Source: Nesterenkonia sp. Act20
GTDB taxonomy: Bacteria; Actinomycetota; Actinomycetes; Actinomycetales; Micrococcaceae
NCBI RefSeq assembly: GCF_019173455.1
Contig: NZ_JADPQH010000001.1
Span: 1,268,391-1,332,390, forward strand
Length of the DNA: 64,000 bases
Reading direction: 5' to 3'
A model generated the notes under the pieces. It was not told the DNA's origin. It did not search any database and saw only the letters and a list, made by a program, of their open reading frames with translations. Below are positions 19,561 to 52,422 of the stretch, one piece after another. A program made the translations under genes and the position numbers. Numbering within the stretch: position 1 is the stretch's first letter; every line of letters starts with the position of its first letter.

Positions 19561-20667
19561 TCAGAGCCGGAGCGTGGCCTTCATGGGCTCGCTCAGCTGT
19601 TCCGCACTGGTCAGGAAGCCGTCATGACCGATCGGCGAGTGGATCGTGTGCACCGGGTGGCCGCCTGGGATGGCATCGGCGATCTGCTGGGACTGTTCAG
19701 GGAAGTACAACCGATCGGTCTCCACAGCTGCGAGGAATGGAACGGCGGTGACCGAGGAGAGAGCCTCGGCCACGCCTCCACGCCCACGCCCGACGTCGTG
19801 GCTCATCAGCGCCTCGGAGAGCACCACATAGGCATTGGGGTCGAATCGCTTGAGCAGCTTCTCGGCCTGGTGGTCCAGGTAGGACTCCACCTGGTAGCGG
19901 CCGCGCCGCCGGTCGGGCCAGCCGAAGGGATCCTCTGCACCCTGCGGGGCGCGTCCGAATCGAGCGCCCAGCTCGGCCTCTGCACGGTAGGTGATGTGGG
20001 CGATCCGCCGCGCGAGCCCGAGTCCGGAATGCGGGGCGGGGCCGCCGTAATAGTCCCCGCCGGCGAAATACGGGTCATTCTCCACCGCCAGCACCTGGGC
20101 CTGCCCGAAAGCGATCTGCTCAGCGGTGGACGCCGCACCGCAGGCGAAGACGGCCACGCCGTCGACCATCTCCGGGTAGGTGGCGGCCCATTCCAGCGCG
20201 CGGGCGCCTCCCATGGATCCACCGATCACCGTGTGGAACGTCTTGATGCCCAGGGCCGCAGCCAGCCGGGCTTCGAGGTGCACGGAATCGCGAATCGTCA
20301 CGAAGGGGAACCGGGAGCCATAGGGCTTCCCGTCGGGATCCAGAGAGGCGGGTCCGGTGGAGCCGTAGCAGCCACCCACCATCGCCGGGGCGATGACGAA
20401 CCAGCGCTGGGTGTCGATCGGTCGACCGGGGCCCAGCAGACCCTCCCACCATCCGATGGAGGGGTCTGCCGGGGTCGCGGCGACATGGGAGTCCCCGGTC
20501 AAGGCGTGCGCCACGAGGATCGCATTGCTGCCGTCCTCGTTGAGCGTGCCCCAGGTCTCGTAGGCGATGGTGACTTCGGGCAGCTGCCCACCTGTCTCGA
20601 ATGTGTACGCCCCCACATCTGCCGTGTTCAGCGCACCCGCAGGCCTGTCCCCAAAGTCATTCAGCAC
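19561..20667 (-). CDS. metX: Homoserine O-acetyltransferase
   Basis: 368 aa a/b-hydrolase, MetX hallmark GGSMGG nucleophile elbow and N-terminal pattern. Confidence 0.85.
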   Translation of the reverse strand: MLNDFGDRPAGALNTADVGAYTFETGGQLPEVTIAYETWGTLNEDGSNAILVAHALTGDSHVAATPADPSIGWWEGLLGPGRPIDTQRWFVIAPAMVGGCYGSTGPASLDPDGKPYGSRFPFVTIRDSVHLEARLAAALGIKTFHTVIGGSMGGARALEWAATYPEMVDGVAVFACGAASTAEQIAFGQAQVLAVENDPYFAGGDYYGGPAPHSGLGLARRIAHITYRAEAELGARFGRAPQGAEDPFGWPDRRRGRYQVESYLDHQAEKLLKRFDPNAYVVLSEALMSHDVGRGRGGVAEALSSVTAVPFLAAVETDRLYFPEQSQQIADAIPGGHPVHTIHSPIGHDGFLTSAEQLSEPMKATLRL

Positions 20668-20682
20668 CCGATCACCCTAACC

Positions 20683-22134
20683 TCAGACCGCGGACGCGGC
20701 TTCTCGCTTCGTCACATTGTCCGCACTCTGGTCATCGGCGGAAGAGTCCTGGTCAGAAGCCTGGCCAGCACTCTGGGTGGTGCTTTGGATGGCGGCCGCC
20801 TTCTCGAGCCCCTGGGCCAGGTCGGCGATGATGTCGTCGATGTGCTCCAGACCCACGGAGAGCCGGACGAGACCTGGCTTGACCCCCGCGGCATGCTGCT
20901 CGGCGGGGCTGAGCTGCCGGTGGGTGGTCGAGGCGGGATGGATCGCCAGCGAGCGCACATCACCGACGTTGGCCACCAGCGAATGCAGCTCCAGCGCGTC
21001 CACCAGCGTCTGGCCCGCGCGGGCCTGCGTGGCGTCGTCGTCCTCGGCTCCGCCGGCAAGCTCGAAGGCCAGCACTGCGCCGGTGCCGCGCGGCAGGTAC
21101 TTCTGCGCCCGCTCGAAGCAGGGGCTCGACGGCAGCCCGGAGTAGTAGACGCGCTTCACGGCCTCGTGGCCCTCCAAATACTCGGCCACCTTCTGGGCGT
21201 TGGCGACGTGGCGCTCGATCCGCAGCGAGAGGGTCTCCAGACCGAGGTTGATCTCAAAGGCGTTGTGCGGAGACAGCGCCGGCCCGAGGTCGCGCAGCAG
21301 CTGCACGCGGGCCTTGAGGATGAAGGAGAGGTTGACTCCGAAGATCCCCTCGGGGCCGAGATCCCGGCCGAAGACCAGCCCGTGGTAGCTCTCATCAGGG
21401 GTGCTGAAGCCGGGGAAGCGCTCCGGGTGGGCGAAGTAGTCGAAGCGTCCGGAGTCCACGATCACCCCGGCGATCGCCGTGCCGTGCCCACCGAGGAACT
21501 TGGTGGCCGAATGCACGACGACGTCGGCGCCGAAGTCGATCGGCTTGATCAGGTACGGGGTAGTCAGCGTGGAATCGATGATCAGCGGCGCACCATGGTC
21601 GTGGGCGACCGAGGCCACCCCTTCGATGTCCAGCACGTCCCCGCGCGGATTGGCCACGGCCTCGCCGAAGAAGGCGACGGTGTTCTCCCGTGTGGCGGCC
21701 CGCCAGGACTCGAGGTCGTCCGGGTCCTCCACGAAAGTGACGTCGATGCCGAACTTCGGAAGCGTGTGCTTGAAGAAGTTCTGCGTGCCGCCGTAGAGGG
21801 TGGGCGAGGCGACGATGTGACTGCCGGACTCGGCGATGTTCAGCAAGGCCAGCGAGGTGGCGGCCTGGCCGGAGCCGACTCCGAGCGCCCCGACGCCGCC
21901 TTCCAGGGCGGCGATCTTGTCCTCGATGGCCTGGACCGTGGGGTTGCCGATGCGGGAGTAGATCGGTGCGATCTCCTCGAGACCGAAGCGACGTGCTGCT
22001 GCGGCGGTGTCGGGGAAGACGAAGGAGGTGGTCTGATGGATCGGCAGGGCCCGTGCTCCGGTGGCCGGATCAGGGGCGACTCCGGCGTGGATCTGCTGGG
22101 TCTCGAACTGCCAGGTGCTGTCGTCGTTGCTCAA
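20683..22134 (-). CDS. metY: O-acetylhomoserine sulfhydrylase (PLP, Cys/Met metabolism family)
   Basis: 483 aa; Cys_Met_Meta_PP fold (SATKFLGGHG lysine region); TTG start at rc 22132-22134 with GGAG 7 nt upstream; acidic C-terminal tail. Confidence 0.85.
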   Translation of the reverse strand: MSNDDSTWQFETQQIHAGVAPDPATGARALPIHQTTSFVFPDTAAAARRFGLEEIAPIYSRIGNPTVQAIEDKIAALEGGVGALGVGSGQAATSLALLNIAESGSHIVASPTLYGGTQNFFKHTLPKFGIDVTFVEDPDDLESWRAATRENTVAFFGEAVANPRGDVLDIEGVASVAHDHGAPLIIDSTLTTPYLIKPIDFGADVVVHSATKFLGGHGTAIAGVIVDSGRFDYFAHPERFPGFSTPDESYHGLVFGRDLGPEGIFGVNLSFILKARVQLLRDLGPALSPHNAFEINLGLETLSLRIERHVANAQKVAEYLEGHEAVKRVYYSGLPSSPCFERAQKYLPRGTGAVLAFELAGGAEDDDATQARAGQTLVDALELHSLVANVGDVRSLAIHPASTTHRQLSPAEQHAAGVKPGLVRLSVGLEHIDDIIADLAQGLEKAAAIQSTTQSAGQASDQDSSADDQSADNVTKREAASAV

Positions 22135-22288
22135 GGAACTGCTCCGTTCAATGCGGTCCTTGGGGCTGAGCCGCGCGTGAACGTCGCTGCCGGTCAGAGG
22201 AGCTCCGGCGTTGAATCCTGTACGGCCCCGTCCTGAGGACTGGGTTTAAGGGCCCGCACTGGTGTGTGGCCCGCGCTTGCCACGTCGA

Positions 22289-22397
22289 TCACCGATGCTC
22301 GGTGATAGCCGCAGCCAGGTCGTCACCCGGGGCACCCCACCGCGAACTGGAGGGTTGCCGGCCAGCAAACCGGGGTTTTGCGCTGGCACTCTTGACC
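22289..22397 (-). ncRNA. SAM-IV riboswitch in metY-metX leader
   Basis: Reverse complement reads GGUCAAGAGUGCCAGCGCAAAACCCCGGUUUGCUGGCCGGCAACCCUCCAGUUCGCGGUGGGGUGCCCCGGGUGACGACCUGGCUGCGGCUAUCACCGAGCAUCGGUGA. This matches the actinobacterial SAM-IV consensus (AGUGCCAGCG...CCCCGG.UUGCUGGCCGGCAACCCUCC...GCGGUGGGGUGCCCCGGGUGA.GACC) nearly base for base; located ~155 nt upstream of metY. Confidence 0.75.
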
Positions 22398-22461
22398 TAG
22401 GGATAAGTCTGCATCGCGGAACGCCGCAGTGCAAGTGCACCCCCTCCTGCGACCCTCCCGC

Positions 22462-22531
22462 GAAAAAATCGTAGACCTCTAGCAAGTCGTAGGGCTATAG
22501 CTCGACGACAACGCGAAAGCTCTACGATTTC
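22462..22531. repeat. Palindromic A-tract/T-tract repeat element, copy A (partly degenerate)
   Basis: gaaaaaatcgtagacctctagcaagtcgtagggctatagctcgacgacaacgcgaaagctctacgatttc; left outer arm intact; 16 nt upstream of lipoprotein ORF1. Confidence 0.85.
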
Positions 22532-22546
22532 TGCCATCCTGGGACG

Positions 22547-22963
22547 ATGCAGCACGAAATCCGTTCGCTGGGCGCAGCCCTCCCGCTGGGCGCGATCTTC
22601 GTCCTCGGCCTCCTGGGCTGTGGTTCAGAACCGAGCACCGCCGATGCGCCCGAGGGCCTCGTCACTCGCGAGACCGACGACGACGGCGGCGACTCAGCCA
22701 TGCTCCAGGGCACCGTCACCCAGTTGGAGGGCTGCTTCTACATCGAGGACGCCCACCCCGAGGGCGAGCTGTGGGTGGCGGTGTTCCCCTCGGATATCGT
22801 CGCCGAACCCTCGGCTGGGGACGGGTTCTCCCTGAACGGGCAGGACTACAACGACGGCGACCAGAGCACCGTCGGAGGCAGCCGCGCCGTCGAGGCGGAC
22901 TACCCAGCGCCCGAGGAATGTGACGAGGAGGCTCCGCAGTGGCAGGTCCATCCGGAGGGCTGA
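22547..22963 (+). CDS. Small secreted lipoprotein, unknown function (paralog 1)
   Basis: 138 aa; signal peptide with lipobox LLGC; conserved blocks DAPEG, GCFY, VAVFP, GxGF..GxDYxDGD..VGGS, PEECDE..QW shared with the next ORF. Confidence 0.6.
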   Translation: MQHEIRSLGAALPLGAIFVLGLLGCGSEPSTADAPEGLVTRETDDDGGDSAMLQGTVTQLEGCFYIEDAHPEGELWVAVFPSDIVAEPSAGDGFSLNGQDYNDGDQSTVGGSRAVEADYPAPEECDEEAPQWQVHPEG

Positions 22964-22964
22964 T

Positions 22965-23405
22965 GTGAGCATCAAAGGTCCAGACCGTGCACGTCGCCGA
23001 CTCGCCGCAGCCGCGCTCCTGGGCGCAGCACTCGGCGCATCGCTGACCGGATGCGCGACAGATCTGCAGGACCCCGATGCACCAGAAGGCGTGCCGAACT
23101 ACATCGTCGACGAAGAGGCCGGTGCCGACGCCGCGCTGGCGGGGCGCGTGGCAGAGATCGATGGCTGTTTCTACGTCCAGGGCCCGGCCCCAGAGCGAAT
23201 TCTCACCCTCGCAGTTTTCCCTGCTCGCGAAGTCACAGACGCGTCGGAGGGGTCAGGATTTGCGTACCTGGGAGAGGACTATGCCGATGGCGACGCCATC
23301 ACCGTCGGCGGAAGCATGTCCGGGTCGACCCTCTACGCCGTTCCCGAGGCGTGTGACGAGGACGTCCAACAGTGGAGGGTCGCCCCGTCGACCCCGGCCC
23401 CCTGA
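22965..23405 (+). CDS. Small secreted lipoprotein, unknown function (paralog 2)
   Basis: GTG start 2 nt after the ORF1 stop, with GGAGGG 5 nt upstream (the track ORF begins at an earlier GTG, 22920); lipobox LTGC, RRR in the n-region; same conserved blocks as paralog 1. Confidence 0.6.
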   Translation: MSIKGPDRARRRLAAAALLGAALGASLTGCATDLQDPDAPEGVPNYIVDEEAGADAALAGRVAEIDGCFYVQGPAPERILTLAVFPAREVTDASEGSGFAYLGEDYADGDAITVGGSMSGSTLYAVPEACDEDVQQWRVAPSTPAP

Positions 23406-23406
23406 C

Positions 23407-23478
23407 GAAAAATCGTAGAGCTATCGCGTTGTCGTAGAGCTATAGCCCCACGATTCGCTAGAGCCCTACGATTTTTTC
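23407..23478. repeat. Palindromic A-tract/T-tract repeat element, copy B (partly degenerate)
   Basis: gaaaaatcgtagagctatcgcgttgtcgtagagctatagccccacgattcgctagagccctacgatttttt; starts 2 nt after the ORF2 stop; right outer arm intact; G-rich right flank mirrors the C-rich left flank of copy A. Confidence 0.85.
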
Positions 23479-23542
23479 GCGAGGGGGGGGCGACGGGGGT
23501 GACGCGGGAGGGCGGGACGTCGCTGGCCTACACTCATCTCTC

Positions 23543-24979
23543 ATGAGCTCCTCTGACAACGATGTCCGCGCAGCCCTGCGCAGCGCCTTCGCGCCCCACG
23601 CCGTGACCACCGACCCGGCGGAGCTCGACTCCCACGCTGTGGACAAGGGGCCGCTGGAGCACTGGCAGGTGCATACCCCGCTCGCGGTCGTCTTCGCGGA
23701 ATCGGTCGCTGAGGTGCAGCAGCTGGTCCAGCTCTCCGCCGAGCACGGCTTCCCGCTGATCACCCGCGGCGCTGGGACCTCCGTCTCGGGCGGGGCCAAC
23801 ACCACAGCAGGCTCGGTGGTGTTGAACCTGACCCGGATGAACCAGATCCTGGCGATGCGCCCCGAGGACGAGGTCGCCGTCGTGGAACCCGGCGTGATCA
23901 ACGCGGATCTGAACACCGCGGCCGCACAGCATGGACTGATGTACGCCCCGGACCCCGCCAGCTACCGCACCTCCACGATCGGCGGCAATGTCGCCACCAA
24001 CGCCGGCGGGCTGCGCTGCGCCAAGTACGGCGTCACCCGGGACTCGGTGCTGGCTCTGGACGTGGTCCTCGCCGACGGCACCCTCATCCATGCCGGACAG
24101 GCCACCTTCAAGGGAGTCGCCGGCTATGACCTGACCAGCCTGTTCGTCGGGTCGGAGGGGACCCTGGGCATCGTCGTCGGCGTCACCGTGCGGCTGCGCC
24201 ACCTGAGTCAGCACACTGAGACCATCGCCGCGTTCTTCGACGAACTCACCACCGCCGCCCAGGGCGTGCTCGACATCGGCAAGGCTCGAGTCCAGCCGGC
24301 GATCACCGAGCTGCTGGACCACCGCACCATGCTCGCCCTCGACGAAGCGCAGGGCTCGGATCTCGCCACCCGCGGGAACACCCTGCTGCTGATCCAGACC
24401 GACGGGCACGGGGCGGGCATCGAAGCCGAGATCATCCGCGAGGTGCTCCGAGCACTCGACGCCACGGTCAGCGACCCCGGCTCCACTGAATCGGAGCGTC
24501 TGATCGAGCTGCGCCGGCACGCCCGGGGCGATGGAATCATCACCGAGGTTCGCGTGGGCGAGGACGTCGCGGTGCCGCGATCCCGGCTGGTGGACTACAT
24601 CCGCGCGATCCAGGACCTCGCAGTGGAGCACGAGGTCCAGCTCAAGGTCGTCGCCCATGCCGGGGACGGCAACCTGCACCCCACCTTCAGCGTGCCGAGC
24701 TCCGAGCTGGCGCCCGAGCCGGACGCAACGGCCGGCGAGCAGAACGACGACGACGGCGCACCCGTCTCAGCGATGTCCCGGCTGCATGCGGCCCTGGACG
24801 GTTCGGTGCGGATCGCACTGGAGATGGGCGGCACGATCACCGGCGAGCACGGCATCGGCACCTATAAGCTGCGCTGGCTGGACTGGGAACAGTCGAACGA
24901 GGTGATCGAGCTGCAGCGCAGCATCAAAAACGTCTTTGACCCTGACTATCGACTCAATCCGGGTCGCGCGATCCTGTAG
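23543..24979 (+). CDS. FAD-linked oxidase (GlcD/D-lactate dehydrogenase-like; FAD_binding_4 + FAD-oxidase_C)
   Basis: 478 aa; PCMH-type FAD-binding domain (ITRGAGTSVSGGA ... GSEGTLGIV). Confidence 0.75.
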   Translation: MSSSDNDVRAALRSAFAPHAVTTDPAELDSHAVDKGPLEHWQVHTPLAVVFAESVAEVQQLVQLSAEHGFPLITRGAGTSVSGGANTTAGSVVLNLTRMNQILAMRPEDEVAVVEPGVINADLNTAAAQHGLMYAPDPASYRTSTIGGNVATNAGGLRCAKYGVTRDSVLALDVVLADGTLIHAGQATFKGVAGYDLTSLFVGSEGTLGIVVGVTVRLRHLSQHTETIAAFFDELTTAAQGVLDIGKARVQPAITELLDHRTMLALDEAQGSDLATRGNTLLLIQTDGHGAGIEAEIIREVLRALDATVSDPGSTESERLIELRRHARGDGIITEVRVGEDVAVPRSRLVDYIRAIQDLAVEHEVQLKVVAHAGDGNLHPTFSVPSSELAPEPDATAGEQNDDDGAPVSAMSRLHAALDGSVRIALEMGGTITGEHGIGTYKLRWLDWEQSNEVIELQRSIKNVFDPDYRLNPGRAIL

Positions 24980-27270: not shown

Positions 27271-27277
27271 CACGTGA

Positions 27278-40016: not shown

Positions 40017-40040
40017 GGCTTCCCCGAGGGGCAGACCTGT

Positions 40041-44172: not shown

Positions 44173-44247
44173 GCAAAAAAATCGTAGACCTCTAGCATGT
44201 CGTAGAGCTATAGCTCTACGACATGGCCGGAGGTCTACGATTTTTTG
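44173..44247. repeat. Palindromic A-tract/T-tract repeat element, copy C (near-perfect); bidirectional terminator-like
   Basis: gcaaaaaaatcgtagacctctagcatgtcgtagagctatagctctacgacatggccggaggtctacgattttttgc; outer 18-bp and inner 12-bp inverted repeats; between convergent ALDH and GH13 genes. Confidence 0.85.
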
Positions 44248-44264
44248 CCTCAGGAGTCAGCTAC

Positions 44265-45920
44265 CTACGCTATCCACACAGTCGCGTCAGGGTTCAAAAG
44301 ACCATCGGTCAACGCATCAGGGACCGACATCAAGATCACTTCACCCGCTGGCAGCGCAGCAGGCGCAGTGGAGAGGTTTGCCACCACTGTCACCTCACCC
44401 ACGCGGAACTCGAGAACGTCCTCGAGGGAATCGCTTTCCCCCCTCCCCGTCCCCCACGTCAGGTCAGATCCAGCGAGGGCGTAGTCACGCCGCATAGCAA
44501 GCGTTGTTCGGTAGAAGGAGAGAGTCGAATCCGACTCCTTCTCCTGAAGATCAACGGCGAGTGCCCCGAAGCTCTCGGGCTGCGGCAGCCAAGTGCGCGG
44601 CGATGAAGAAAACCCGAAAGCCACGTCATCGGCGCGCCAAGGAAGGGGCACACGACAACCATCGCGACCCCGGATGGCATGGCCAGATCGCTCCCACACC
44701 GGATCCTGACGGACCTCATCGGGAAGCATCGTGGCCTCCGGGAGGCCGAGTTCTTCCCCTTGGTAGAGGTAAGCGGAACCCGGCAGGGCTAGCATTATGG
44801 CGGTCGCGGCGCGTGCACGGCGCAGGCCGAGGGCATCGTCAGGTTGAGGATCCTCTGGACCCACACCTGCTTCGAGGTTCACCGGGCCCTGGTATCCGAA
44901 GCGGCTCGCATGTCGCATCACATCGTGGTTGGAGAGCACCCAGGTAGTCGGGGCGCCCACCGCTTCATTCGCAGCAAGGGATGTGGCGATGGTCTCACGG
45001 ATCTCAGCGCAGTCCCATGGCAGAGACAGGTAGGCGAAGTTGAAGGCCTGGTGCATCTCCCCCTCACGGACTATGCGCGCAGTCCGCTCCGGGGGGAGCC
45101 ATGCCTCTGCACATAGGATTCTGGTGCCGGAATAGCTGTCGAGAATCTCTCGCCAATGGCGGAAGATGTCGTGGATGCCCTCCTGGTCCCACATCGGTGG
45201 CATGAGGCCATCTATGGGCTCGACCACACCGTGAGCCGCGTGCGGCCAGCTGGGGAGGCCCGGAGCCTTCACCATGGCGTCGCATACATCGACTCTGAAC
45301 CCGTCGACGTCGCGGTCCAGCCAGAATCTCAGCGTCGTGTCGAACTCGGACCGCACCCGGGGGTTGTCCCAGTTCCAATCGGGCTGACCAGAGTCGAAGA
45401 GATGCAGATACCACTGACCCGGGGTCCCATCGGCTTCGGTGACCCGTGTCCACGCGGGGCCGCCGAACATGCTCTCCCAATCATTCGGTGGAAGCGACCC
45501 CTCGGGCCCCGTCCCCTCTTTGAAATGGAAGAGGGACCGCTCAGGGCTCCCCGGCGCCGCGGCGAGTGCCTCTTTGAACAGCACGTGCTCCCAGGAGCAG
45601 TGGTTGGGCACAAGGTCAACGATTACTCTCAGTCCCAGCTCATGAGCCCGGTCGACCATCTCATCGAAGTCAGCGAGGGTTCCGTACCTTTCGTCGACGT
45701 CGCGGTAGTCGGCCACGTCGTAGCCCCCGTCACGTTGCGGGGACGGATAGAAGGGGGACAACCACACGGCGTCCGCCCCCAGATCCGCGACATGGCTGAG
45801 TCGCTGGGAGATTCCTCTCAGATCGCCGGTTCCGTCGCCGTCGCTGTCGGCGAACGAGCGGGGGTAGACCTGGTAGATGACGGCCGTGCGCCACCATTCG
45901 GAGTCGTTGATGTCGATCAT
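44265..45920 (-). CDS. GH13 alpha-glucosidase / oligo-1,6-glucosidase-like
   Basis: 551 aa; GH13 regions (DLVPNHCS, GFRVDVCD, catalytic EAW..). Confidence 0.8.
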   Translation of the reverse strand: MIDINDSEWWRTAVIYQVYPRSFADSDGDGTGDLRGISQRLSHVADLGADAVWLSPFYPSPQRDGGYDVADYRDVDERYGTLADFDEMVDRAHELGLRVIVDLVPNHCSWEHVLFKEALAAAPGSPERSLFHFKEGTGPEGSLPPNDWESMFGGPAWTRVTEADGTPGQWYLHLFDSGQPDWNWDNPRVRSEFDTTLRFWLDRDVDGFRVDVCDAMVKAPGLPSWPHAAHGVVEPIDGLMPPMWDQEGIHDIFRHWREILDSYSGTRILCAEAWLPPERTARIVREGEMHQAFNFAYLSLPWDCAEIRETIATSLAANEAVGAPTTWVLSNHDVMRHASRFGYQGPVNLEAGVGPEDPQPDDALGLRRARAATAIMLALPGSAYLYQGEELGLPEATMLPDEVRQDPVWERSGHAIRGRDGCRVPLPWRADDVAFGFSSSPRTWLPQPESFGALAVDLQEKESDSTLSFYRTTLAMRRDYALAGSDLTWGTGRGESDSLEDVLEFRVGEVTVVANLSTAPAALPAGEVILMSVPDALTDGLLNPDATVWIA

Positions 45921-46777
45921 GCAGTGAGGGTTCCCTTTCGGTACAAGTCAGGTCGTCGGTCGGCAAGCAGACCGTTGTGCGGGGAGATTGATTTGTCCTC
46001 GGCGAGATGAAGCGAGAGTGACGCACGGGCGACCGGGCGGGCCCCCGAAGCGTCTGGAACATCGGCCACAACCCAACCGTATTGACTCACGATCACGGTG
46101 GCTTCGTTCCACGATTGACCCCGCTCAATCCCGGCTCGATCACAGCAGGCGATAAAGACGCCGTTGGTCCGCGCCGCCGCTTGAGCTGCGATCACCTCGG
46201 CAGCACGCTCGGCCACGGGATGCTCTCCCGAGGGCCAATTCGTGGGGACAGCGATGAGATCAGCCCCTGCGAGAGCGAGGAGCCGCGGCATCTCGGGAAA
46301 CTCCATGTCGTAGCAGATCAACAGGCCTATCCTGCCGTGCACCGTGTCAACCACGGGAGGCAGATCATTCCCCGGCTCGAATACCTGGGTCTCGCGATCC
46401 CAGAGATGCGTCTTTCGATAGACCGCGCTCACACCGTCGGCGTCGATCAACGCCGCACTGTTGTAGAGCACCTCACCCCCGTCCTCGCAGAACCCCACGA
46501 CGACAACCAGCGAAGTACCTCCAAGCGCCGCGGAAGTCTCGGCGAAGAAGGGGTGATCCGTGGTCATTGCGACGCTGCGAGCCTCCGCCCGGCTCCTGAA
46601 CACATAGCCCGACGTGGACAGTTCGGGCAGCACGAGAACATCCGTTCCGTCGGAACAGGCTTCCGCGACTGCCTCGCCGATCAGGGTGAGATTTCCTTCG
46701 AGGTCACCCACCATGGGTGTGAGCTGGTGACACGCGACATTCGTCAGCTTCCGCTCAAGAGCAGCACCCGGACTCAT
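45917..46777 (-). CDS. Carbon-nitrogen hydrolase family (nitrilase/amidase superfamily)
   Basis: 286 aa; E-K-C triad context (LPELSTSGY, RKTHLW, LLICYDMEFPE); ATGA overlap with glucosidase start. Confidence 0.75.
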   Translation of the reverse strand: MSPGAALERKLTNVACHQLTPMVGDLEGNLTLIGEAVAEACSDGTDVLVLPELSTSGYVFRSRAEARSVAMTTDHPFFAETSAALGGTSLVVVVGFCEDGGEVLYNSAALIDADGVSAVYRKTHLWDRETQVFEPGNDLPPVVDTVHGRIGLLICYDMEFPEMPRLLALAGADLIAVPTNWPSGEHPVAERAAEVIAAQAAARTNGVFIACCDRAGIERGQSWNEATVIVSQYGWVVADVPDASGARPVARASLSLHLAEDKSISPHNGLLADRRPDLYRKGTLTA

Positions 46778-47580
46778 TTGACGGCCCCTTCGGTGATCCC
46801 AGAGATGAGGCGACGCTGCAGCACCACATAGGCGCTGACGATCGGCAGCGCCACGAGGACTGCCGCGGCAGCTGTGATGTTCGGGTCGGAAGCACGAGCG
46901 GCGCCAGAGAAGAAGGACAAAGCTAGCGGCGCCGTCTGGACGGCTTCGTTCTGGGGAACAAGGATCAAGGCGAGGAGGAATTCATTCCAGGTGAAGAGGA
47001 ACAAGATGGTCACCAAAGTAGCGATTGCCGGTCCCGCGATGGGCATCAGCACACTCCTGAAGATGATGAACCTCGACGCCCCGTCCATCCGCGCCGCTTC
47101 CAAGAGTTCCTTGGGCACGGACGCGAAGAACGCACGCATCCAGAACACTCCTAACGGTACGGAGAGGCCGATCTGGGGCAATATGAGAGCGAGATATGTG
47201 TCGATGAGATTCCAGTCTGCCAACATCTGATAGAGCGGCAAGACGGTGACCTCATACGGAAGCACCAACCCCAGCAGCATCGCGCCCAGCATGATCTTGA
47301 CCCCGGGGACCCTCATGTGGGCCATGGCATAGCCAGCCAAACAGGCCACGGCGACGGTCACAGCGACGACGGCGGTGGTCACCAAGGCGCTTGAGGCCAG
47401 TGCCGATCCGAAGCCGCCTCTCGTCCACGCCTCGGCGTAGTTCGCGAACGTGAGAGACCCAGAGGAGTCCGATCCACGGAGCGAGGAAATCACAATTGAG
47501 AGGAACGGGAAGACGGCGATGGCCGTTGCGATGAGGAGGAGAGTATGGGTGATGACAACTTCGCTGCGTGCAACCTTCAT
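46774..47580 (-). CDS. ABC transporter permease (carbohydrate, MalG-like)
   Basis: 268 aa, 6 TM, EAA loop (EAARMDGASRFIIFRSVLMP). Confidence 0.8.
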   Translation of the reverse strand: MKVARSEVVITHTLLLIATAIAVFPFLSIVISSLRGSDSSGSLTFANYAEAWTRGGFGSALASSALVTTAVVAVTVAVACLAGYAMAHMRVPGVKIMLGAMLLGLVLPYEVTVLPLYQMLADWNLIDTYLALILPQIGLSVPLGVFWMRAFFASVPKELLEAARMDGASRFIIFRSVLMPIAGPAIATLVTILFLFTWNEFLLALILVPQNEAVQTAPLALSFFSGAARASDPNITAAAAVLVALPIVSAYVVLQRRLISGITEGAVK

Positions 47581-48566
47581 GAGTTTCTCTCCTCCTTGCC
47601 GGGGGCCTGCGCCGGCTCCGGCGTCGAGCGTGGAGCTCGGTCGGGCGACTCTCGCAGCGCAAGCTGAACGATGCCGACGATCACCAAGGTGAGCACGGTA
47701 AGCACAACCGCCAGCGCCGAAGCCTCCCCGAGCAATCTGTTCTGGAACGCGTCCTGGTAGATGTAGACGCTGGGGACGGCCGTAGAGGTGCCGGGGCCGC
47801 CCTGAGTGGTGTTCCAGATCAGATCGAAGTTCCTCAGCGCGAACGTGATGGTGAGAATCAGTGCGATAGATATCTGCGGGCGCAGGGATGGCAGAGTGAT
47901 GCTGACGAACTCTCGGATGGGACCCGCGCCGTCAAGCCGCGCAGCCTCGTACAGCGAACGGTCGATCGAGGCGATGCCGGAGAGGAAGAGCAGCATGCAC
48001 AACCCGTACTCCACCCAGGTTCCTATCCCGCCGATGGCTGGCAGCGCAGTGCCGAAATCTCCGAGCCAGGCACGCGTGATCGACCCAAGACCGACAGCGC
48101 GCAGAGTCTCGTTGAGCGGTCCATCGATCGCGAGAATATCTCGCCACGAGACAGCAACGACCACGCTCGAAAGGATCTGCGGGAGGAACAACAGCGCCCT
48201 GAACCAGGTCAACCCGTAGATCCTGATCCGAGACATGAGCCCCGCAAGAAAGAGACCAATGACCACAGGAAGGGCCGCATAGAAGAACAGCAGCACCAAG
48301 GAGTGGCTGAGCGCCTCTCTCATGGCCGGATTGGTGAAGACCTCCACGTAGTTCGAGAAGCCAACCGGAGTTGCCGCGGTGATGCCGTCCCAGCGGTAGA
48401 AGGAGATTCGCACCGACTGCACGATCGGGACGATCACAAACACGATGAAGAACGCCAGCGCGGGCGCGACATAGAACAACGAGGACCAGGAGTATCTGGA
48501 TGAACCCTGCCTGCGTCGCTTCGAAGAAGCCTCGGGTCTTTTCGCTTCGGCCCTCGACACGGTCAT
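47577..48566 (-). CDS. ABC transporter permease (carbohydrate, MalF-like)
   Basis: 329 aa, EAA loop (EAARLDGAGPIREFVSITLP). Confidence 0.8.
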   Translation of the reverse strand: MTVSRAEAKRPEASSKRRRQGSSRYSWSSLFYVAPALAFFIVFVIVPIVQSVRISFYRWDGITAATPVGFSNYVEVFTNPAMREALSHSLVLLFFYAALPVVIGLFLAGLMSRIRIYGLTWFRALLFLPQILSSVVVAVSWRDILAIDGPLNETLRAVGLGSITRAWLGDFGTALPAIGGIGTWVEYGLCMLLFLSGIASIDRSLYEAARLDGAGPIREFVSITLPSLRPQISIALILTITFALRNFDLIWNTTQGGPGTSTAVPSVYIYQDAFQNRLLGEASALAVVLTVLTLVIVGIVQLALRESPDRAPRSTPEPAQAPGKEERNS

Positions 48567-49918
48567 CCGTGCGCCTCGGCCCAGACCTCTTGGACCTGCT
48601 CGGTGAATTCCTCCGGGCTCACCCGTCCGGCCATCACTTCCTGCAACGTTCCACCCATCTGATTCAGCATGTCGGTGGTCGCCCAGTCGTAATATCCGAC
48701 CTGGGTTCCCGCTTCGATCGTCTCCTCGAGAGCCGTCAGCGTCTGTTCCTCCAACGGGTCGTCAGCTGTGACTCCGTCGGTCACAACAGGCAGTCGACCG
48801 GTGTCGAGAATCTGCTGGCCCACCTCCGGAGAGTGCAAGGTCTCCAGAAAAGCGATCGCGGGGAGTTCCGCGTCGGTGCTGCTGCTGATGTGCCATGGCG
48901 ATGCCGTGGCACCGACGCCACCCGAGGTGAGTGACCCGAAACCGAACTCTTCGGAGTTCAGCGGGGCACCGTTCCATGATCCACCGACGAAGTAGACCCC
49001 CTCACCGTCGGCGAACCGAGCAATGGCGTCTTGGTTGCTGATGCCGTCATAGCCGGGTCCGAAGTATCCCGCATCCGCCCAAGCTGCCATCGTCTGAGCC
49101 GCCTCAGCATTTCCTTCCGTCTCGAACGTTGCGTCTGGATCGCCGCCGATCCACGCTGCAATATCCGCTGGATCCTGAGTGGTCGCAGCGATGTCGGAGA
49201 AGATATGCGTTGCGGCGTACTGGTCGGAATTGCCGAGCATGATCGCCTGCTCTCCAGCCTCGTCTGCCGCTGCGGCGCCAGCTTCCAGATCCTCGACGGA
49301 ATCCGGAGCCGTGAGGTTCAGTTCCTCGAGCTTTTCCTTGTTGTAGTAGATGCCCTGCACTTCGCTGATGGGTGACATGCCGTAGAGGGTTCCACTGCCG
49401 AAAGCTGATCCCTCGTCGTTCCATCGTGCCGGATCGAGGGTGCTTGCTCCGGTGCCTTCTTCCCAGCCGTAGACGTCGGCCACATCGTCAAGTGGGCGGA
49501 CGAGGTCTCCCTTCACAAGTGCTCCGTCGACTGCGTGTCCGATGTTGCCCTGGAACAGGTCAGGCGGGGAGCTGCTCGCTGCAGCATTCACTACGGTGGC
49601 GATGAGATCATCGAAGCTCTTGTACGTCACGTCAACGGTCACGTTCGGGTATTCGTCCTCGAATGCTGGGACGACCTCTTCCATCAGCCCTTCTTCGGCC
49701 TGGTCGGCCCAGACTGACAGCGTGACATCCCCAAGATCCGCGATCTGTTCAGGCGTCACTTCCTCGGTGATGGACTGGCGATCTTCATCTGATGATTCTG
49801 CGGCAGCACCGCTGCCAGGGGCCCCACATCCGGAGAGTGCGAGCAGCGCTACCACCGACGTGGTGAGCGGCATAGACATGAATCGTGCACGGTGACCTGC
49901 TCGAACGCTGTGTCTCAT
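48563..49918 (-). CDS. ABC transporter solute-binding lipoprotein (family 1, sugar)
   Basis: 451 aa; lipobox LSGC; SBP_bac_1 fold. Confidence 0.75.
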   Translation of the reverse strand: MRHSVRAGHRARFMSMPLTTSVVALLALSGCGAPGSGAAAESSDEDRQSITEEVTPEQIADLGDVTLSVWADQAEEGLMEEVVPAFEDEYPNVTVDVTYKSFDDLIATVVNAAASSSPPDLFQGNIGHAVDGALVKGDLVRPLDDVADVYGWEEGTGASTLDPARWNDEGSAFGSGTLYGMSPISEVQGIYYNKEKLEELNLTAPDSVEDLEAGAAAADEAGEQAIMLGNSDQYAATHIFSDIAATTQDPADIAAWIGGDPDATFETEGNAEAAQTMAAWADAGYFGPGYDGISNQDAIARFADGEGVYFVGGSWNGAPLNSEEFGFGSLTSGGVGATASPWHISSSTDAELPAIAFLETLHSPEVGQQILDTGRLPVVTDGVTADDPLEEQTLTALEETIEAGTQVGYYDWATTDMLNQMGGTLQEVMAGRVSPEEFTEQVQEVWAEAHG

Positions 49919-51261
49919 GACTGTTCTCCTGTGGTGTTTCCGACGGTTTCAAATGAGGCGAGACGCATGGTCGCGGTTGCCTCGTGCGCAGACATGCCCT
50001 CGCTGTTGGAGATCACTGCGACGGCCTCGGCCAAGGCTGGCGTCGCCTCCCTAGTGATGCGCTGGTAGGTGAGCGGCTTGAGGAACCTCGAAACGGAGAG
50101 TCCAGCGCTGTGCTTCGCGCCACCAGCAGTAGGGAGCGTGTGGTTCGTGCCCGCCATGCCCTTGTCAGAATAGGCAACGGTACTCCAATGGCCCATGAAG
50201 AGTGAGCCATAGTTGGTGAGGTGGTCGTGGTACCATGCGTCATCTGCGGTCTGGACCTCCAAATGTTCCGGCGCCAGCTCGTCCATGACTAGAACTGCGT
50301 CTTCCGGCGACTCGACGACGACTACCGAACCGAAATCTCTCCAGGCAGGTCCGCAGATGTCACGCGTGGATAGCTCCAGGATCTGACGTTCGACCGCCGC
50401 GATGACCTGCTGCCCCAACGACCTGGATGTCGTCACGAGTGCCGCAGGAGAGTTGGGGCCATGCTCTGCCTGTCCAAGCAGGTCAGCGGCGACTATCTCT
50501 GCGTCGGCGGTCTCATCAGCAATCACCGCGACCTCGGAGGGCCCAGCCAAGAGATCGATGGCGACCGCGCCGAAGAGCTGCCTCTTGGCTTCAGCGACGT
50601 AGGCATTGCCCGCACCGACGATCATGTCAACCGGCGCCTCTCCCAGGAGTCCGAATGCCATCCCCGCGAGGGCCTGCACGCCACCCAGCAGGTAGAGATG
50701 ATCCACCCCGGAGAGGTGTGCGGCATAGCTCACCGCATCGTTGGCCCGTCCGTCCGGCTGCGGCGGAGTGCAACCCAGGACGGAAGGCACTTGGGCGGCC
50801 TTGGCGACTCCAATGCTCATCAGCGCACTCGCAGTGAGCGGAAAGCGTCCGGCAGGAAGGTAGGCCCCGACGCTATTGATCGGAATGTAGCGCTGTCCCA
50901 CAGTAAGTCCTGGGACCATCTCCGCTTCGAAGTCGAAGAGGTGTTCGCGCTGAAGGGCCGCGAACTGTCGGGTTCGTTCGGAGCCAAGCTCGATCGCGGC
51001 CCGCAGCTCCGGGTTCAGTCGATCGCCGCTCGAGGCAATCGAGGCGGCATCCAGTTCGAACGTCGATAGCTCAGAGCCATCGAGATCCTTCGCGTATTTG
51101 CGAATCGCCTGCATGCCGTGACGTTCGATATCGAGCAGCATCTCGCTGACTCTGGCGGCGACCGCAGGGTCGCGTTGGGCGGGGGGCGCGTCGACTTTCG
51201 GCGCTTTGAGCTCATCAAAGCGCTCACCATGTACGGACCTGAACTGTGGGCTAATTCTCAT
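49915..51261 (-). CDS. Histidinol-dehydrogenase-family NAD-dependent dehydrogenase (HisD paralog, non-histidine context)
   Basis: HisD fold with Zn-ligand regions (GQAEHGPNS, HLEV..); probable start MRISPQF (track ORF starts at 51297); first gene of the sugar ABC operon. Confidence 0.65.
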   Translation of the reverse strand: MRISPQFRSVHGERFDELKAPKVDAPPAQRDPAVAARVSEMLLDIERHGMQAIRKYAKDLDGSELSTFELDAASIASSGDRLNPELRAAIELGSERTRQFAALQREHLFDFEAEMVPGLTVGQRYIPINSVGAYLPAGRFPLTASALMSIGVAKAAQVPSVLGCTPPQPDGRANDAVSYAAHLSGVDHLYLLGGVQALAGMAFGLLGEAPVDMIVGAGNAYVAEAKRQLFGAVAIDLLAGPSEVAVIADETADAEIVAADLLGQAEHGPNSPAALVTTSRSLGQQVIAAVERQILELSTRDICGPAWRDFGSVVVVESPEDAVLVMDELAPEHLEVQTADDAWYHDHLTNYGSLFMGHWSTVAYSDKGMAGTNHTLPTAGGAKHSAGLSVSRFLKPLTYQRITREATPALAEAVAVISNSEGMSAHEATATMRLASFETVGNTTGEQS

Positions 51262-51333
51262 GAACCCGACTATTCCGGGTTGGAAGATGAAGGACAACTG
51301 CAGGTTTTCAACGGATTCCTATAGCCTGAAGCT

Positions 51334-52233
51334 ATGTCTTTGAACCAGATGCGGGCTTTTCTCATGGTCGTCTCCATGGGGAGCTTCTCCGGGGCAGCAA
51401 CAGAGATGCAGATGGCGCAGCCTTCGGTGTCTGGAATGATCAAGAGAATCGAACAGGCCTACGGCGTGCGGCTTTTCACCAGGGGGCCGCGACGCCTCGT
51501 CTTGACCAACGCAGGCCAGGAGCTTCTCCCGTATGCGAAAGCGGCCGTGGAAGCGGCGGACAACGCCGACGTCGCGCTTCGATCCCTCACGTCTCTCGCT
51601 GGCGGGGTCGCCACCTTCGGACTGCTGCGCAACGCAAACTACTACTTCCTCTCACGCCTGCTCGAAACATTCACGACGCGGTTTCCGGATGTGCGCCTGA
51701 GGGTCTTCGGCCTCAACTCAGCCGAAGTTGCAGAAGCAGTAGCGGCTGGCGATCTGGAAGCAGGCCTCGTCGTGCTGCCGATCGACTCAGAGGGCTTGCA
51801 GGTGACGCCTCTGATGAGAGACGAAGTCTTTTACGCCTCGGCAGACCCCTCGCGCACGGCAAGCCCCGTCACGATCCGAGACCTCTCGCAGGCCGATCTG
51901 ATCCTCTACGACGCGCATTACGGCTGGCGAGATCCTACACGGCGGCAACTCGCAGAGCGCGCCAACCTCGAAGGGGTGACTCTCACGGCTCGAATCGAAG
52001 TGGAACACGTTGAATCTGCGCTGGACATGGTGCAGCACGGACACGGCGACACGATCATCTCAGGGGCAGTCAGAGCAGGGAAAGCCTTCCCCCCATCGAT
52101 CCATACCGCCCCATTTGCTGAACCGATGTATGACACGATCGCCCTTGTTCAGAGACCCGGAGCGGTACTCTCACCCGCCACGCGTGAACTCACCAGACTC
52201 GCTCAACGGATGCTGCTCCAACCGAATTTCTAA
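51334..52233 (+). CDS. LysR-family transcriptional regulator
   Basis: 299 aa; N-terminal LysR HTH (MRAFLMVVSMGSFSGAATEMQMAQPSVS); divergent from the ABC operon. Confidence 0.8.
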   Translation: MSLNQMRAFLMVVSMGSFSGAATEMQMAQPSVSGMIKRIEQAYGVRLFTRGPRRLVLTNAGQELLPYAKAAVEAADNADVALRSLTSLAGGVATFGLLRNANYYFLSRLLETFTTRFPDVRLRVFGLNSAEVAEAVAAGDLEAGLVVLPIDSEGLQVTPLMRDEVFYASADPSRTASPVTIRDLSQADLILYDAHYGWRDPTRRQLAERANLEGVTLTARIEVEHVESALDMVQHGHGDTIISGAVRAGKAFPPSIHTAPFAEPMYDTIALVQRPGAVLSPATRELTRLAQRMLLQPNF

Positions 52234-52334
52234 GCGCTGTCAGTTGTGGCCTCGCGATCCACCGCAGGAAGGTGCCGGAGCGGAGGTCCGTCGCCTGTCG
52301 GGAATCAGCGCAATTCTCAAGAACCGTCTCCCCC

Positions 52335-52404
52335 GAAAACATCGTAGACCTCCGGCGATGTCGTAGAGCTATAGCTCTACGATTCGCTAGAGGTCTACGA
52401 TTTT
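52335..52404. repeat. Palindromic A-tract/T-tract repeat element, copy D
   Basis: gaaaacatcgtagacctccggcgatgtcgtagagctatagctctacgattcgctagaggtctacgatttt; C-rich left/G-rich right flanks; between convergent LysR and sulfatase genes. Confidence 0.85.
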
Positions 52405-52422
52405 CTCCGGGAGGGGGCGGGG

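What the first reader, a model, noticed from the sequence alone, without database searches (positions are those of the whole stretch)
22462..23478. Two copies of the palindromic element bracket a two-gene paralogous lipoprotein cassette
Copy A ends 16 nt before the ORF1 ATG and copy B begins 2 nt after the ORF2 stop, so the ~1 kb between them is exactly the two lipoprotein genes. A keeps its left (outer) arm best and B its right (outer) arm. The C-rich flank left of A (cccctcctgcgaccctcccgcg) is the reverse complement of the G-rich flank right of B (cgcgaggggggggcgacggggg). The pair therefore behaves like terminal inverted repeats of a composite, possibly mobilisable or recombination-delimited, cassette inserted between the metY riboswitch leader and a FAD-oxidase gene. 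Alternatively A is an operator upstream of the pair and B its terminator.
Basis: partly seen in the sequence, partly recalled or inferred. Interest (0 to 1): 0.7.

Follow-up and report, generated by a model that had tools for sequence, protein, structure and literature searches.

The report
Palindromic repeat pair flanking lipoprotein operon
Two inverted copies of a previously undescribed 72-bp hairpin-forming repeat of Nesterenkonia flank a fast-evolving two-gene lipoprotein operon in a gene-swapping hot spot, most likely as transcription terminators or insulators and not as the ends of a jumping cassette.

Summary
The window is Nesterenkonia sp. Act20. Copies A (22462-22533) and B (23407-23478) are real and are inverted sisters, 88% complementary over 78 nt. 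They flank two paralogous lipoprotein genes (44% identity, both with a lipobox). They belong to a Nesterenkonia-restricted family of 72-bp nested palindromes. Each copy has four invariant TCGTAGAGCT boxes, A/T-run shoulders, and a C-rich 5' and G-rich 3' flank. One relative's genome holds at least 15 copies, and the window holds four.

The C/G-rich flanks are a compositional trait of every copy, not cassette-specific repeat extensions. Single copies lie mostly between convergent genes. Orthologous copies evolve more slowly than synonymous sites.

The metY | FAD-oxidase gap is hypervariable. It has no genes in N. lutea, different genes in other species, and the lipoprotein pair with only a degenerate A and no B in a deeper lineage. 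The pair is never seen at another locus. No target-site duplication and no recombinase were found.

A second pair (C/D) flanks an 8-kb island. There the duplication junction lies outside the element, and the one-copy "empty" sites are best read as deletions between direct repeats.

Verdict: a REP/MITE-like terminator or insulator repeat, and a new member of a known kind. The composite-transposon reading is only partly supported.

The parts
22440..22461 (.). C-rich 5' flank of copy A. It begins just beyond the conserved metY promoter block ('gcaagtgc').
   Evidence: sequence. Flank composition. Homology with N. lutea and YGD6 ends at 'gcaagtg'.
22462..22533 (.). Copy A of the 72-bp nested-palindrome repeat, in 'rev' polarity (short arm on the left). 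The outer A-run is intact. The inner T-run is degraded to TTTCTG in all orthologues.
   Evidence: Hairpin -37 kcal/mol, z = -3.8.
22547..22963 (+). ORF1, a 138-aa predicted lipoprotein (lipobox LLG|C) of an uncharacterised family.
22965..23405 (+). ORF2, a 146-aa paralogous predicted lipoprotein (GTG start, lipobox LTG|C).
23407..23478 (.). Copy B of the repeat, in 'fwd' polarity and inverted relative to A. Both its A-run and T-run are intact.
   Evidence: With its flanks the hairpin is -60.7 kcal/mol, z = -4.9.
23479..23515 (.). G-rich 3' flank of copy B, with G-quadruplex-type runs. It ends at the conserved FAD-oxidase promoter block ('cctacactc').
   Evidence: Boundary defined against N. 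lutea, YGD6 and L023.
22268..22397 (-). SAM-IV riboswitch leader of metY. This is the left neighbour and is not part of the element.
   Evidence: 97 bits against a gathering threshold of 38.
23543..24979 (+). FAD-linked oxidase gene. This is the right neighbour.
44175..44246 (.). Copy C of the same repeat ('rev'), between the convergent aldehyde dehydrogenase and alpha-glucosidase genes. It is the left boundary of the 8-kb island.
44247..52335 (.). 8-kb accessory island: GH13 glucosidase, nitrilase-type hydrolase, sugar ABC transporter, HisD-like gene and LysR regulator. It is flanked by C and D. It is absent in N. halotolerans and in 2-592A-3Z, and present in ERR5377901.
52336..52407 (.). Copy D of the repeat ('fwd'). 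It is orthologous to the single copy found in N. halotolerans and in 2-592A-3Z.

Best explanation
**What it is.** A and B are inverted sister copies of a Nesterenkonia-specific dispersed intergenic repeat. Each copy is a 72-bp nested palindrome with four TCGTAGAGCT boxes, a 22-bp perfect core, A-run and T-run shoulders, and a compositionally C-rich 5' and G-rich 3' flank.

**How it most likely works (inferred).** The family behaves like REP/BIME- or MITE-type elements. On either strand a transcript would carry a long hairpin followed by a U-run, so the most likely role is a bidirectional terminator, insulator or RNA 3'-end structure.

**At this locus (inferred).**
- B ends the lipoprotein operon 2 nt after its stop codon and shields the FAD-oxidase promoter.
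- A stops leftward transcription from running into the metY promoter and SAM-IV leader. Its inward T-run is degraded, so transcription into lipo1 is not blocked.
- A's outer box supplies a TACGAT motif 21-26 nt upstream of the ATG that could serve as a -10 element.

**History.** The lipoprotein pair is an old, fast-evolving resident of a hypervariable gap between two core promoters. It is not a transposon. A is old. B arose later, in the halotolerans group, as a local inverted duplicate of A when the downstream genes were lost.

**Role of pairs (shown for C/D only).** Pairs of copies arise by local duplication. They then act as passive repeats for homologous deletion or exchange, as the C/D island shows.
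For: **Family and structure**
- The genome scan found the core pattern only in Nesterenkonia. The same relaxed core pattern gave only chance core matches in metagenome contigs. A BLAST of copy C with its flanks (101 nt) found nothing in plasmids or phages.
- In an alignment of 26 copies the four boxes and the core are invariant and the inter-box segments vary.
- 81% of positions pair in the hairpin. There are compensatory AU-to-UA and GC-to-CG changes, and no shuffle reached the observed covariation score.
- The hairpins are strong, with z from -3.3 to -9.6.

**Position**
- Five of eight single-copy loci with both neighbours called lie between convergent genes. My binomial P is about 0.03.
- The neighbours of single copies are housekeeping genes, with no transposase.
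- C and D both lie between convergent genes.

**Constraint**
- Orthologous copies are 86-97% identical. Synonymous sites in metY and the FAD oxidase are only 77-80% identical, and those in the lipoprotein genes 50-58%.
- A's inward T-run reads TTTCTG in all four genomes, and CTTCTG in L023. Its outward run is intact.

**History**
- States of the gap: A-lipo-lipo-B in Act20, N. halotolerans, 2-592A-3Z and SRR25400176; no genes in N. lutea; a CBAH gene in YGD6; degenerate A, lipo, lipo, a small membrane protein and CBAH without B in L023; and an unrelated lipoprotein plus the small membrane protein in L021 and L093.
- The lipo1 and lipo2 orthologues each group together across lineages.

**C/D pair**
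- The window is collinear with N. halotolerans except for 44248-52328.
- L090 carries the island with C and D, plus a direct duplicate of the last 28 nt of the aldehyde dehydrogenase gene left of D.
- Island genes are 88-94% identical between Act20 and L090, the same as the flanking aldehyde dehydrogenase at 92%. The island is therefore ancestral, and the one-copy sites are deletions that left a D-type copy.
Against: - There are no expression data. Termination and insulation are inferred from architecture and position only.
- The simple terminator scan flagged nothing at A or B. The stem is long and interrupted, and the U-run can pair with the A-run.
- A terminator needs structure, not sequence. 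The strict invariance of four 10-bp boxes is therefore not explained and hints at a sequence-specific binding protein.
- Three copies (A, L010, L011) lie between divergent genes.
- Pairs are far more frequent than chance. Four pairs no more than 1.4 kb apart occur among 15 copies in a genome of at least 2 Mb, against about 0.15 expected by my calculation. A purely passive terminator does not explain this.
- C is flipped relative to D although their left flanks are direct duplicates. That flip has no demonstrated mechanism.
- Cassette dS about three times the flanks could reflect allele exchange rather than simple residence.
Confidence: 0.55

Rival explanations
1. Recombination-delimited allele cassette. 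The conserved elements, together with the conserved neighbouring genes, act as homology anchors. Divergent alleles of the surface lipoprotein pair are swapped between lineages by homologous recombination. The elements therefore delimit a unit of exchange without being mobile themselves.
For: - dS between Act20 and N. halotolerans is 0.61 for lipo1 and 0.82 for lipo2, against 0.23 for metY and 0.27 for the FAD oxidase.
- Nucleotide identity falls from about 95% to about 70% between roughly 22400 and 23520 and recovers on both sides.
- This is the longest contiguous low-identity stretch in 48 kb of collinear sequence.
- The elements themselves stay 86-96% identical.
- C and D share lineage-specific variants, CTAG in Act20 and CTGG in L090. 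This suggests sequence exchange between copies.
Against: - A 72-bp anchor is short, and the breakpoints cannot be placed at the elements with this resolution.
- Higher dS may partly reflect weaker codon constraint in small secreted proteins.
- dN/dS is about 0.3, so there is no clear positive selection.
- The lipo1 and lipo2 trees are compatible with vertical descent.
Confidence: 0.2
2. Composite mobile cassette. A and B are the terminal inverted repeats of a unit moved by a trans-acting transposase or site-specific recombinase that recognises the TCGTAGAGCT boxes, in the manner of REPIN/RAYT, pdif-module or attC systems.
For: - The inverted sister pair is real.
- The four invariant boxes suggest protein recognition.
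- Pairs flank accessory genes far more often than chance.
- All three inverted pairs have the same polarity, with the short arm facing outward.
- Each box contains the GTAG tetranucleotide that marks one superfamily of REPs (PMC3733652).
Against: - The cassette sits at the same locus in every genome that has it.
- L023 lacks B.
- No target-site duplication was found. No transposase or recombinase was found in the window, in its N. halotolerans counterpart, or next to single copies.
- No single-copy insertion polymorphism appears among three lineages about 10% apart.
- In the C/D pair the duplication junction lies inside the aldehyde dehydrogenase gene, about 50 nt outside the element.
- A crossover at the element centre predicts that the left arm of C is the same type as the left arm of the ancestral copy. 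It is not.
Confidence: 0.12
3. Operator array. The four boxes are binding sites of a transcription factor or nucleoid protein that regulates the adjacent genes. A would be the operator of the lipoprotein operon.
For: - The 10-bp boxes are invariant, in two direct and two inverted copies at fixed 18-19-nt spacing, with a 22-bp perfect palindrome at the centre.
- A ends 16 nt before the ORF1 ATG, and it holds that position even in L023.
Against: - Most copies lie between the 3' ends of convergent housekeeping genes, where an operator has nothing to control.
- The neighbouring genes share no functional theme.
- No regulator gene is linked to the copies.
Confidence: 0.08

Closest known systems
REP / BIME / REPIN elements (repetitive extragenic palindromes; GTAG-tagged superfamily, PMC3733652; RAYT-associated, PMC2817692)
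   Same: - Short dispersed extragenic palindromes that fold into hairpins, often between convergent genes.
- Inverted halves form one long stem-loop.
- A GTAG motif is present in every box.
- Some REP families have fewer than 100 copies. Some sit inside small GC-rich palindromes, for example T. roseum CCGSSCC...GGSSCGG in PMC3733652, which recalls the C-rich and G-rich flanks here.
- Proposed roles for REPs are termination and mRNA stabilisation.
   Different: - The unit here is not a GTAG tail followed by a 5-13-bp stem and a loop. It is four direct or inverted 10-bp boxes in a single 72-bp palindrome.
- The copy number is low, about 15 or more.
- No RAYT (Y1 transposase) was found, and none could be searched for genome-wide.
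- The host is an actinobacterium. PMC3733652 does not mention that phylum.
MITEs that act as terminators or promoters (Correia, ERIC, RUP and similar; named from my own knowledge)
   Same: - Non-coding, palindromic, dispersed in intergenic DNA, and tens to about 150 bp long.
- They can carry outward promoter-like motifs and hairpin terminators.
   Different: - No target-site duplication was seen.
- No parent IS with matching ends was found.
- No insertion polymorphism of single copies was seen among the genomes compared.
Composite transposons and pdif modules (named from my own knowledge)
   Same: - Cargo genes lie between two inverted copies of a short repeated site.
- All three inverted pairs here share the same polarity.
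   Different: - The cargo has never been seen at a second locus.
- Some pairs (L001, L012) are direct, not inverted.
- The traced junction in the C/D pair lies outside the repeat.
- There is no Xer-type 11-6-11 site and no recombinase.
Integron attC sites (named from my own knowledge)
   Same: - An imperfect palindrome with two box pairs and a 1-nt arm asymmetry that would bulge in a folded strand.
- It flanks gene cassettes.
   Different: - There is no GTTRRRY/RYYYAAC core.
- The boxes within one arm are direct, not inverted.
- There is no integrase and no attI site.
- Copies are scattered in the core genome, not arranged in an array.
Bidirectional intrinsic terminators
   Same: - A-run, then hairpin, then T-run, readable from both strands.
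- Located at convergent gene ends, and 2 nt after a stop codon in the case of B.
   Different: - The hairpin is much longer and richer in A and T than usual.
- It has the same sequence at many loci.
- It carries C-rich and G-rich outer flanks.

Membership tests
REP/BIME/REPIN | Short extragenic imperfect palindrome that forms a stem-loop | tested here: met
   Hairpins with z from -3.3 to -9.6. 81% of positions pair across 26 copies. All copies are intergenic.
REP/BIME/REPIN | Unit built as a conserved GTAG (or CGTC) tail at one end of a 20-40-bp stem-loop | tested here: inconclusive
   GTAG is present in all four boxes. The boxes do not form separate 20-40-bp stem-loops. The element is one 72-bp palindrome.
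REP/BIME/REPIN | Associated RAYT (Y1/HUH transposase) gene, typically flanked by REPs | not testable with these tools
   None appears among the neighbours examined. No whole-genome protein search was left. The two element-flanked ORFs in L002 and L012 have no Pfam or NCBIfam match.
REP/BIME/REPIN | High copy number (usually above 100, though some families have 20-100 or fewer) | tested here: inconclusive
   15 copies with an intact core in 2-592A-3Z and four in this 64-kb window. Degenerate copies were not counted genome-wide.
MITE | Target-site duplication flanking each copy | tested here: not met
   No direct repeats flank the copies. The flanks are compositionally C-rich or G-rich but not duplicated.
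MITE | Presence/absence polymorphism of single copies between close genomes | tested here: not met
   All copies are shared between Act20 and N. halotolerans over about 40 kb of collinear sequence, and in the parts of that region held for 2-592A-3Z and L090. The C/D deletion is the only exception.
MITE | Parent IS with matching terminal inverted repeats | not tested
   No IS was seen in the sequence held. Complete genomes were not available to scan.
Composite transposon / mobilisable cassette | Two copies of the same element flanking cargo genes | tested here: met
   A and B are 88% complementary over 78 nt. They are nearest relatives within each genome.
Composite transposon / mobilisable cassette | The same unit found at different genomic sites, with target-site duplications | tested here: not met
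   The lipoprotein pair is always between metY and the FAD oxidase. No target-site duplication was found.
Site-specific recombination cassette (attC / pdif type) | Crossover inside the site, so that attL and attR are reciprocal hybrids of the resident and incoming sites | tested here: not met
   In the C/D pair the ancestral single copy is D-type on both arms. The duplication junction lies 28 nt inside the aldehyde dehydrogenase gene.
Site-specific recombination cassette (attC / pdif type) | Cognate tyrosine recombinase or integrase nearby, or a Xer-type core | tested here: not met
   None is present in the window or in the syntenic N. halotolerans loci. The core sequence is unlike dif or attC cores, a comparison made from my own knowledge.
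Bidirectional intrinsic terminator | Stable hairpin followed by a U-run on both strands, at gene 3' ends | tested here: met
   Sequence and folds of B, C and D. Convergent-gene location. The simple scan did not flag them because the stem is long and interrupted.
Bidirectional intrinsic terminator | Transcripts actually end there | not testable with these tools
   This needs Term-seq or a reporter assay.

The most novel reading that the evidence does not exclude
The repeat is the substrate of a dedicated, still unidentified DNA enzyme that recognises the four TCGTAGAGCT boxes. This would be an actinobacterial counterpart of the REPIN/RAYT partnership. The enzyme would copy the element locally in either orientation and flip its interior. 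That activity would create the flanked accessory-gene units and their later loss. The C-rich and G-rich, G-quadruplex-prone flanks would be a footprint of this process or its target preference.
Probability: 0.15. Interest if true: 0.6.

Novelty: new member of a known kind. Interest (0 to 1): 0.35.

Why it matters
- Dispersed palindromic repeats are well studied in Proteobacteria, but I found no description of one in Nesterenkonia in the searchable literature. This family is small, clean and under purifying selection, with an unusual four-box design and skewed G-quadruplex-prone flanks. That makes it a tractable case for asking whether such repeats act as terminators or insulators in high-GC Actinobacteria, and what protein reads them.
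- For genome annotation, it explains hairpins at gene ends.
- It flags two accessory regions of the UV-resistant strain Act20: a fast-evolving surface lipoprotein pair and an 8-kb sugar-utilisation island.
- It is a worked example in which repeats flanking a cassette look like transposon ends but are better explained by local duplication followed by repeat-mediated deletion.

Tried and rejected
1. **Centre-crossover (attL/attR) model.** A and B look like reciprocal chimeras of two perfect palindromes. That is mathematically the same as "B is the reverse complement of an asymmetric A", so it adds no evidence. Asymmetric single copies are the norm. The model fails for C/D.
2. **Flank complementarity as an extension of the inverted repeats.** Rejected by the all-against-all flank control. 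A copy's own two flanks score the same as the family background (13.4 against 13.3).
3. **The 8-kb island as an Act20-specific insertion into a resident element.** This was my first reading. I rejected it after finding L090 with the island at the same divergence as the flanks, plus the 28-nt direct duplication.
4. **Metagenome scan.** It gave only chance core matches.
5. **Plasmid and phage searches.** No match.
6. **Rfam.** Nothing at gathering thresholds. Only sub-threshold hairpin-type miRNA hits.
7. **Function of the lipoproteins.** No Pfam or NCBIfam match. The AlphaFold model was unusable, with pLDDT 38, so no fold search was run.
8. **The element-flanked ORFs of L002 and L012 as candidate enzymes.** No family match.
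9. **Target-site duplications.** None found.
10. **Consensus promoter and terminator scan.** No hits.
11. **Remnants of the element at the gap in N. lutea, YGD6, LB17, N. flava and L021.** None found.
Full report
**Source and observation.** The window comes from the 2.09-Mb contig of Nesterenkonia sp. Act20, shown by exact protein matches.
- Copy A is at 22462-22533 and copy B at 23407-23478.
- A's T-run ends 16 nt before the ORF1 ATG at 22547. B starts 2 nt after the ORF2 stop codon at 23403-23405.
- The repeat finder reports arms 22453-22530 and 23410-23487 as 88% complementary over 78 nt.
- The 15-nt core motif occurs 14 times in the window against 0.46 expected, all within four elements: A, B, C (44175-44246) and D (52336-52407).
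- ORF1 and ORF2 are paralogues, 44% identical with E = 3e-32. Each has a signal peptide ending in a lipobox. Neither matches Pfam or NCBIfam.
- An exhaustive profile search finds 185 representative proteins with E-value of 0.001 or better, most about 130 aa long. This is a small uncharacterised family.

**Anatomy of the element.** An alignment of 26 copies from seven Nesterenkonia sources gives the design:
- an A-run,
- TCGTAGAGCT,
- 8-9 variable nt,
- TCGTAGnGCTA | TAGCnCTACGA,
- 8-9 variable nt,
- AGCTCTACGA,
- a T-run.

The four boxes and the GCTATAGC centre are invariant. The inter-box segments vary. One arm is always 1 nt longer than the other, so every copy has a definable polarity. As a single strand each copy folds into a long hairpin (z from -3.3 to -9.6). 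Across copies 81% of positions pair. Compensatory changes occur, and no shuffle reached the observed covariation score. No Rfam family matches.

**The flanks.** That does not hold.
- Every copy has a C-rich 5' flank (mean 50% C) and a G-rich 3' flank (mean 49% G).
- G-quadruplex-type runs occur in 5 of 21 right flanks, against a background of 0.13%.
- The A-left/B-right complementarity ranks only 62nd of 529 flank combinations.
- A copy's own two flanks are no more complementary than unrelated ones.

The flanks are therefore a compositional family trait. They are also length-variable between orthologues.

**Distribution.**
- A scan of one genome per species finds the core only in Nesterenkonia. 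There are 15 copies in the uncultured isolate 2-592A-3Z and two divergent copies each in N. sp. F and N. muleiensis.
- The metagenome scan gave only chance matches. Plasmids and phages gave none.
- 113 kb of syntenic DNA from N. lutea, YGD6, LB17, N. flava and the L021 lineage holds no copy.
- I found no literature on such a repeat in this genus.
- Five of eight single-copy loci with both neighbours called lie between convergent genes. The neighbours are housekeeping genes with no transposase.
- Orthologous copies are 86-97% identical between lineages. Synonymous sites in the same lineages are only 77-80% identical in the flanking genes. The copies are therefore constrained.

| Genome or contig | Content of the gap |
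|---|---|
| Act20, N. halotolerans, 2-592A-3Z, SRR25400176 | A, lipo1, lipo2, B |
| N. lutea | 415 bp, no gene, no element |
| N. sp. YGD6 | one CBAH-family gene, no element |
| L023 (FAD oxidase 83% identical) | degenerate A (E = 2e-6), lipo1, lipo2, small membrane protein, CBAH; no B |
| L021 and L093 | unrelated lipoprotein plus the small membrane protein |
| N. flava | other genes |

Homology between species stops at the metY promoter block on the left and at the FAD-oxidase promoter block on the right. The variable DNA therefore fills exactly the space between two core promoters.

The lipo1 and lipo2 orthologues each group together. The duplication, and A, are thus older than B. B appears only in the halotolerans group, where the membrane-protein and CBAH genes are missing. 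The pair is never found elsewhere. No target-site duplication or recombinase is present.

**A divergence island.** Between Act20 and N. halotolerans:
- dS is 0.23 for metY, 0.27 for the FAD oxidase, 0.61 for lipo1 and 0.82 for lipo2. dN/dS in the lipoprotein genes is about 0.3.
- Nucleotide identity drops from about 95% to about 70% between roughly 22400 and 23520.
- This is the longest contiguous low-identity stretch in 48 kb of collinear sequence.

This fits either weaker constraint or exchange of old alleles. It keeps the "recombination-delimited" reading alive as a rival.

**Pairs elsewhere.** In 2-592A-3Z, four of the 15 copies' neighbours are another copy no more than 1.4 kb away. About 0.15 such pairs are expected for a genome of at least 2 Mb (my calculation). 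These pairs flank:
- an aldo/keto reductase (L001),
- a 443-aa ORF (L002),
- an ORF of about 200 aa (L012),
- the lipoprotein pair (L014).

Pair mates are usually each other's closest relative. Orientation varies: L001 and L012 are direct, while A/B, C/D and L002 are inverted. Pairs therefore arise by local duplication in either orientation.

**The C/D pair shows how a pair forms and what it then does.**
- The window is collinear with N. halotolerans from 13600 to 62128 except for 44248-52328. That 8-kb island carries a glucosidase, a nitrilase-type hydrolase, a sugar ABC transporter, a HisD-like gene and a LysR regulator. It lies exactly between C and D.
- N. halotolerans and 2-592A-3Z have one D-type copy at the site. 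I first read this as an insertion in Act20.
- A contig from run ERR5377901 (L090) changes that reading. It is 98% identical to 2-592A-3Z in the aldehyde dehydrogenase gene and carries the island with C and D.
- Its island genes are 88-94% identical to those of Act20, like the flanking aldehyde dehydrogenase gene at 92%. The island is therefore ancestral and was lost at least twice.
- In L090 the left flank of D holds a direct duplicate of the last 28 nt of the aldehyde dehydrogenase gene plus a C-tract. Act20 keeps only GTCTCCCCCG of it.
- The pair thus arose by duplication of a segment that contained the element, with the junction outside the element. Deletion between the direct repeats gives the one-copy sites.
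- The interior of C is flipped relative to D, and I cannot explain that.
- A second large indel nearby (40021-42748) has no element at its ends. Elements are therefore not required for gene gain and loss here.

**Mechanism.** The best-supported reading, at about 0.55, is that the family is a REP/MITE-like structural repeat acting as a bidirectional hairpin terminator or insulator.
- B terminates the lipoprotein operon and shields the FAD-oxidase promoter.
- A protects the metY promoter and riboswitch from leftward transcription. Its inward T-run is degraded to TTTCTG in every orthologue while the outward run is intact. This is what one expects if read-through into lipo1 must be allowed.

These functional steps are inferred from architecture, position and constraint, and none has been shown. 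The strict invariance of the boxes, the excess of pairs and the flip of C are not explained by a passive terminator. They are the basis for the more novel reading, a dedicated enzyme or binding protein, to which I give 0.15.

**Comparison with known systems.**
- The closest are REP/BIME/REPIN elements. They share extragenic hairpins, a GTAG motif, small families in some species, insertion within small GC-rich palindromes in at least one species, and proposed roles in termination and mRNA stabilisation (PMC3733652, PMC2817692).
- Membership is not established. The unit architecture differs, and a RAYT gene could not be searched for.
- The defining features of MITEs (target-site duplication, insertion polymorphism) were tested and not met.
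- The features of composite transposons (same unit at other sites) and of attC or pdif sites (crossover inside the site, cognate recombinase) were also tested and not met.

**Verdict.** The composite-transposon interpretation is only partly supported. This is a new family of a known kind of element, of moderate interest.

Noticed in passing
window 44247-52335, with C at 44175-44246 and D at 52336-52407; L090 2843-2915 and 10964-11036: An 8-kb sugar-utilisation island (GH13 glucosidase, nitrilase-type hydrolase, ABC transporter, HisD-like gene, LysR regulator) is flanked by an inverted element pair. It is absent in N. halotolerans and in 2-592A-3Z, which each keep one D-type copy. It is present in an ERR5377901 contig, where D is preceded by a direct duplicate of the last 28 nt of the aldehyde dehydrogenase gene.
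   Followed up: yes
window 40021-42748: The AraC-type regulator and GMC oxidoreductase genes present in Act20 and N. halotolerans are replaced by about 147 nt in 2-592A-3Z (L013) and L090. No element sits at either boundary, so large indels here do not need the repeat.
   Followed up: partly
window 22547-23405: The two lipoprotein genes have dS of 0.6-0.8 and dN of 0.18-0.27 against N. halotolerans. The neighbouring metY and FAD-oxidase genes have dS of about 0.25 and dN of about 0.02. This is a sharply bounded divergence island.
   Followed up: yes
right flanks of copies, for example window 23479-23515 and 52408-52430; L013, L008: The 3' flanks carry runs that fit a G-quadruplex motif in 5 of 21 copies, against 0.13% of random 45-nt windows. 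Some flanks are short tandem arrays, such as CTCCCCCG three times in N. halotolerans and GGGGAGC three times in L008, and their length varies between orthologues.
   Followed up: partly
L002 5297-6628 (-) and L012 about 428-1090 (-): Two ORFs of 2-592A-3Z are each flanked by an element pair and match nothing in Pfam or NCBIfam. The 443-aa one lies between sdhB and a YihY-like gene. By eye its C-terminus looks like the DUF559/Vsr-type endonuclease proteins common in Actinobacteria, but this is unconfirmed.
   Followed up: partly
window 19561-22397 (-): A SAM-IV riboswitch (97 bits) leads a metY (O-acetylhomoserine sulfhydrylase) gene followed by a metX-like (homoserine O-acetyltransferase) gene. 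Its promoter block 'gcaagtgc...cagact' is conserved in every Nesterenkonia locus fetched here that retains this region.
   Followed up: partly
L023 1161-2448; L020 8924-9907; L021 9709-9984: Other species carry a small membrane protein (91-118 aa) and/or a CBAH-family hydrolase in the same gap. N. lutea instead has short tandem copies of the 'GCGCAAGTGC...GCGACAG' promoter-proximal sequence.
   Followed up: partly
window 27181-27272 (+): A tRNA-Ser (GCT) gene.
   Followed up: no
window 32640-32689 and 32288-32359: A CCGGCA hexamer repeated 8.3 times and a 33-nt unit repeated 2.2 times. Identity to N. halotolerans is low around 32578-32676.
   Followed up: no
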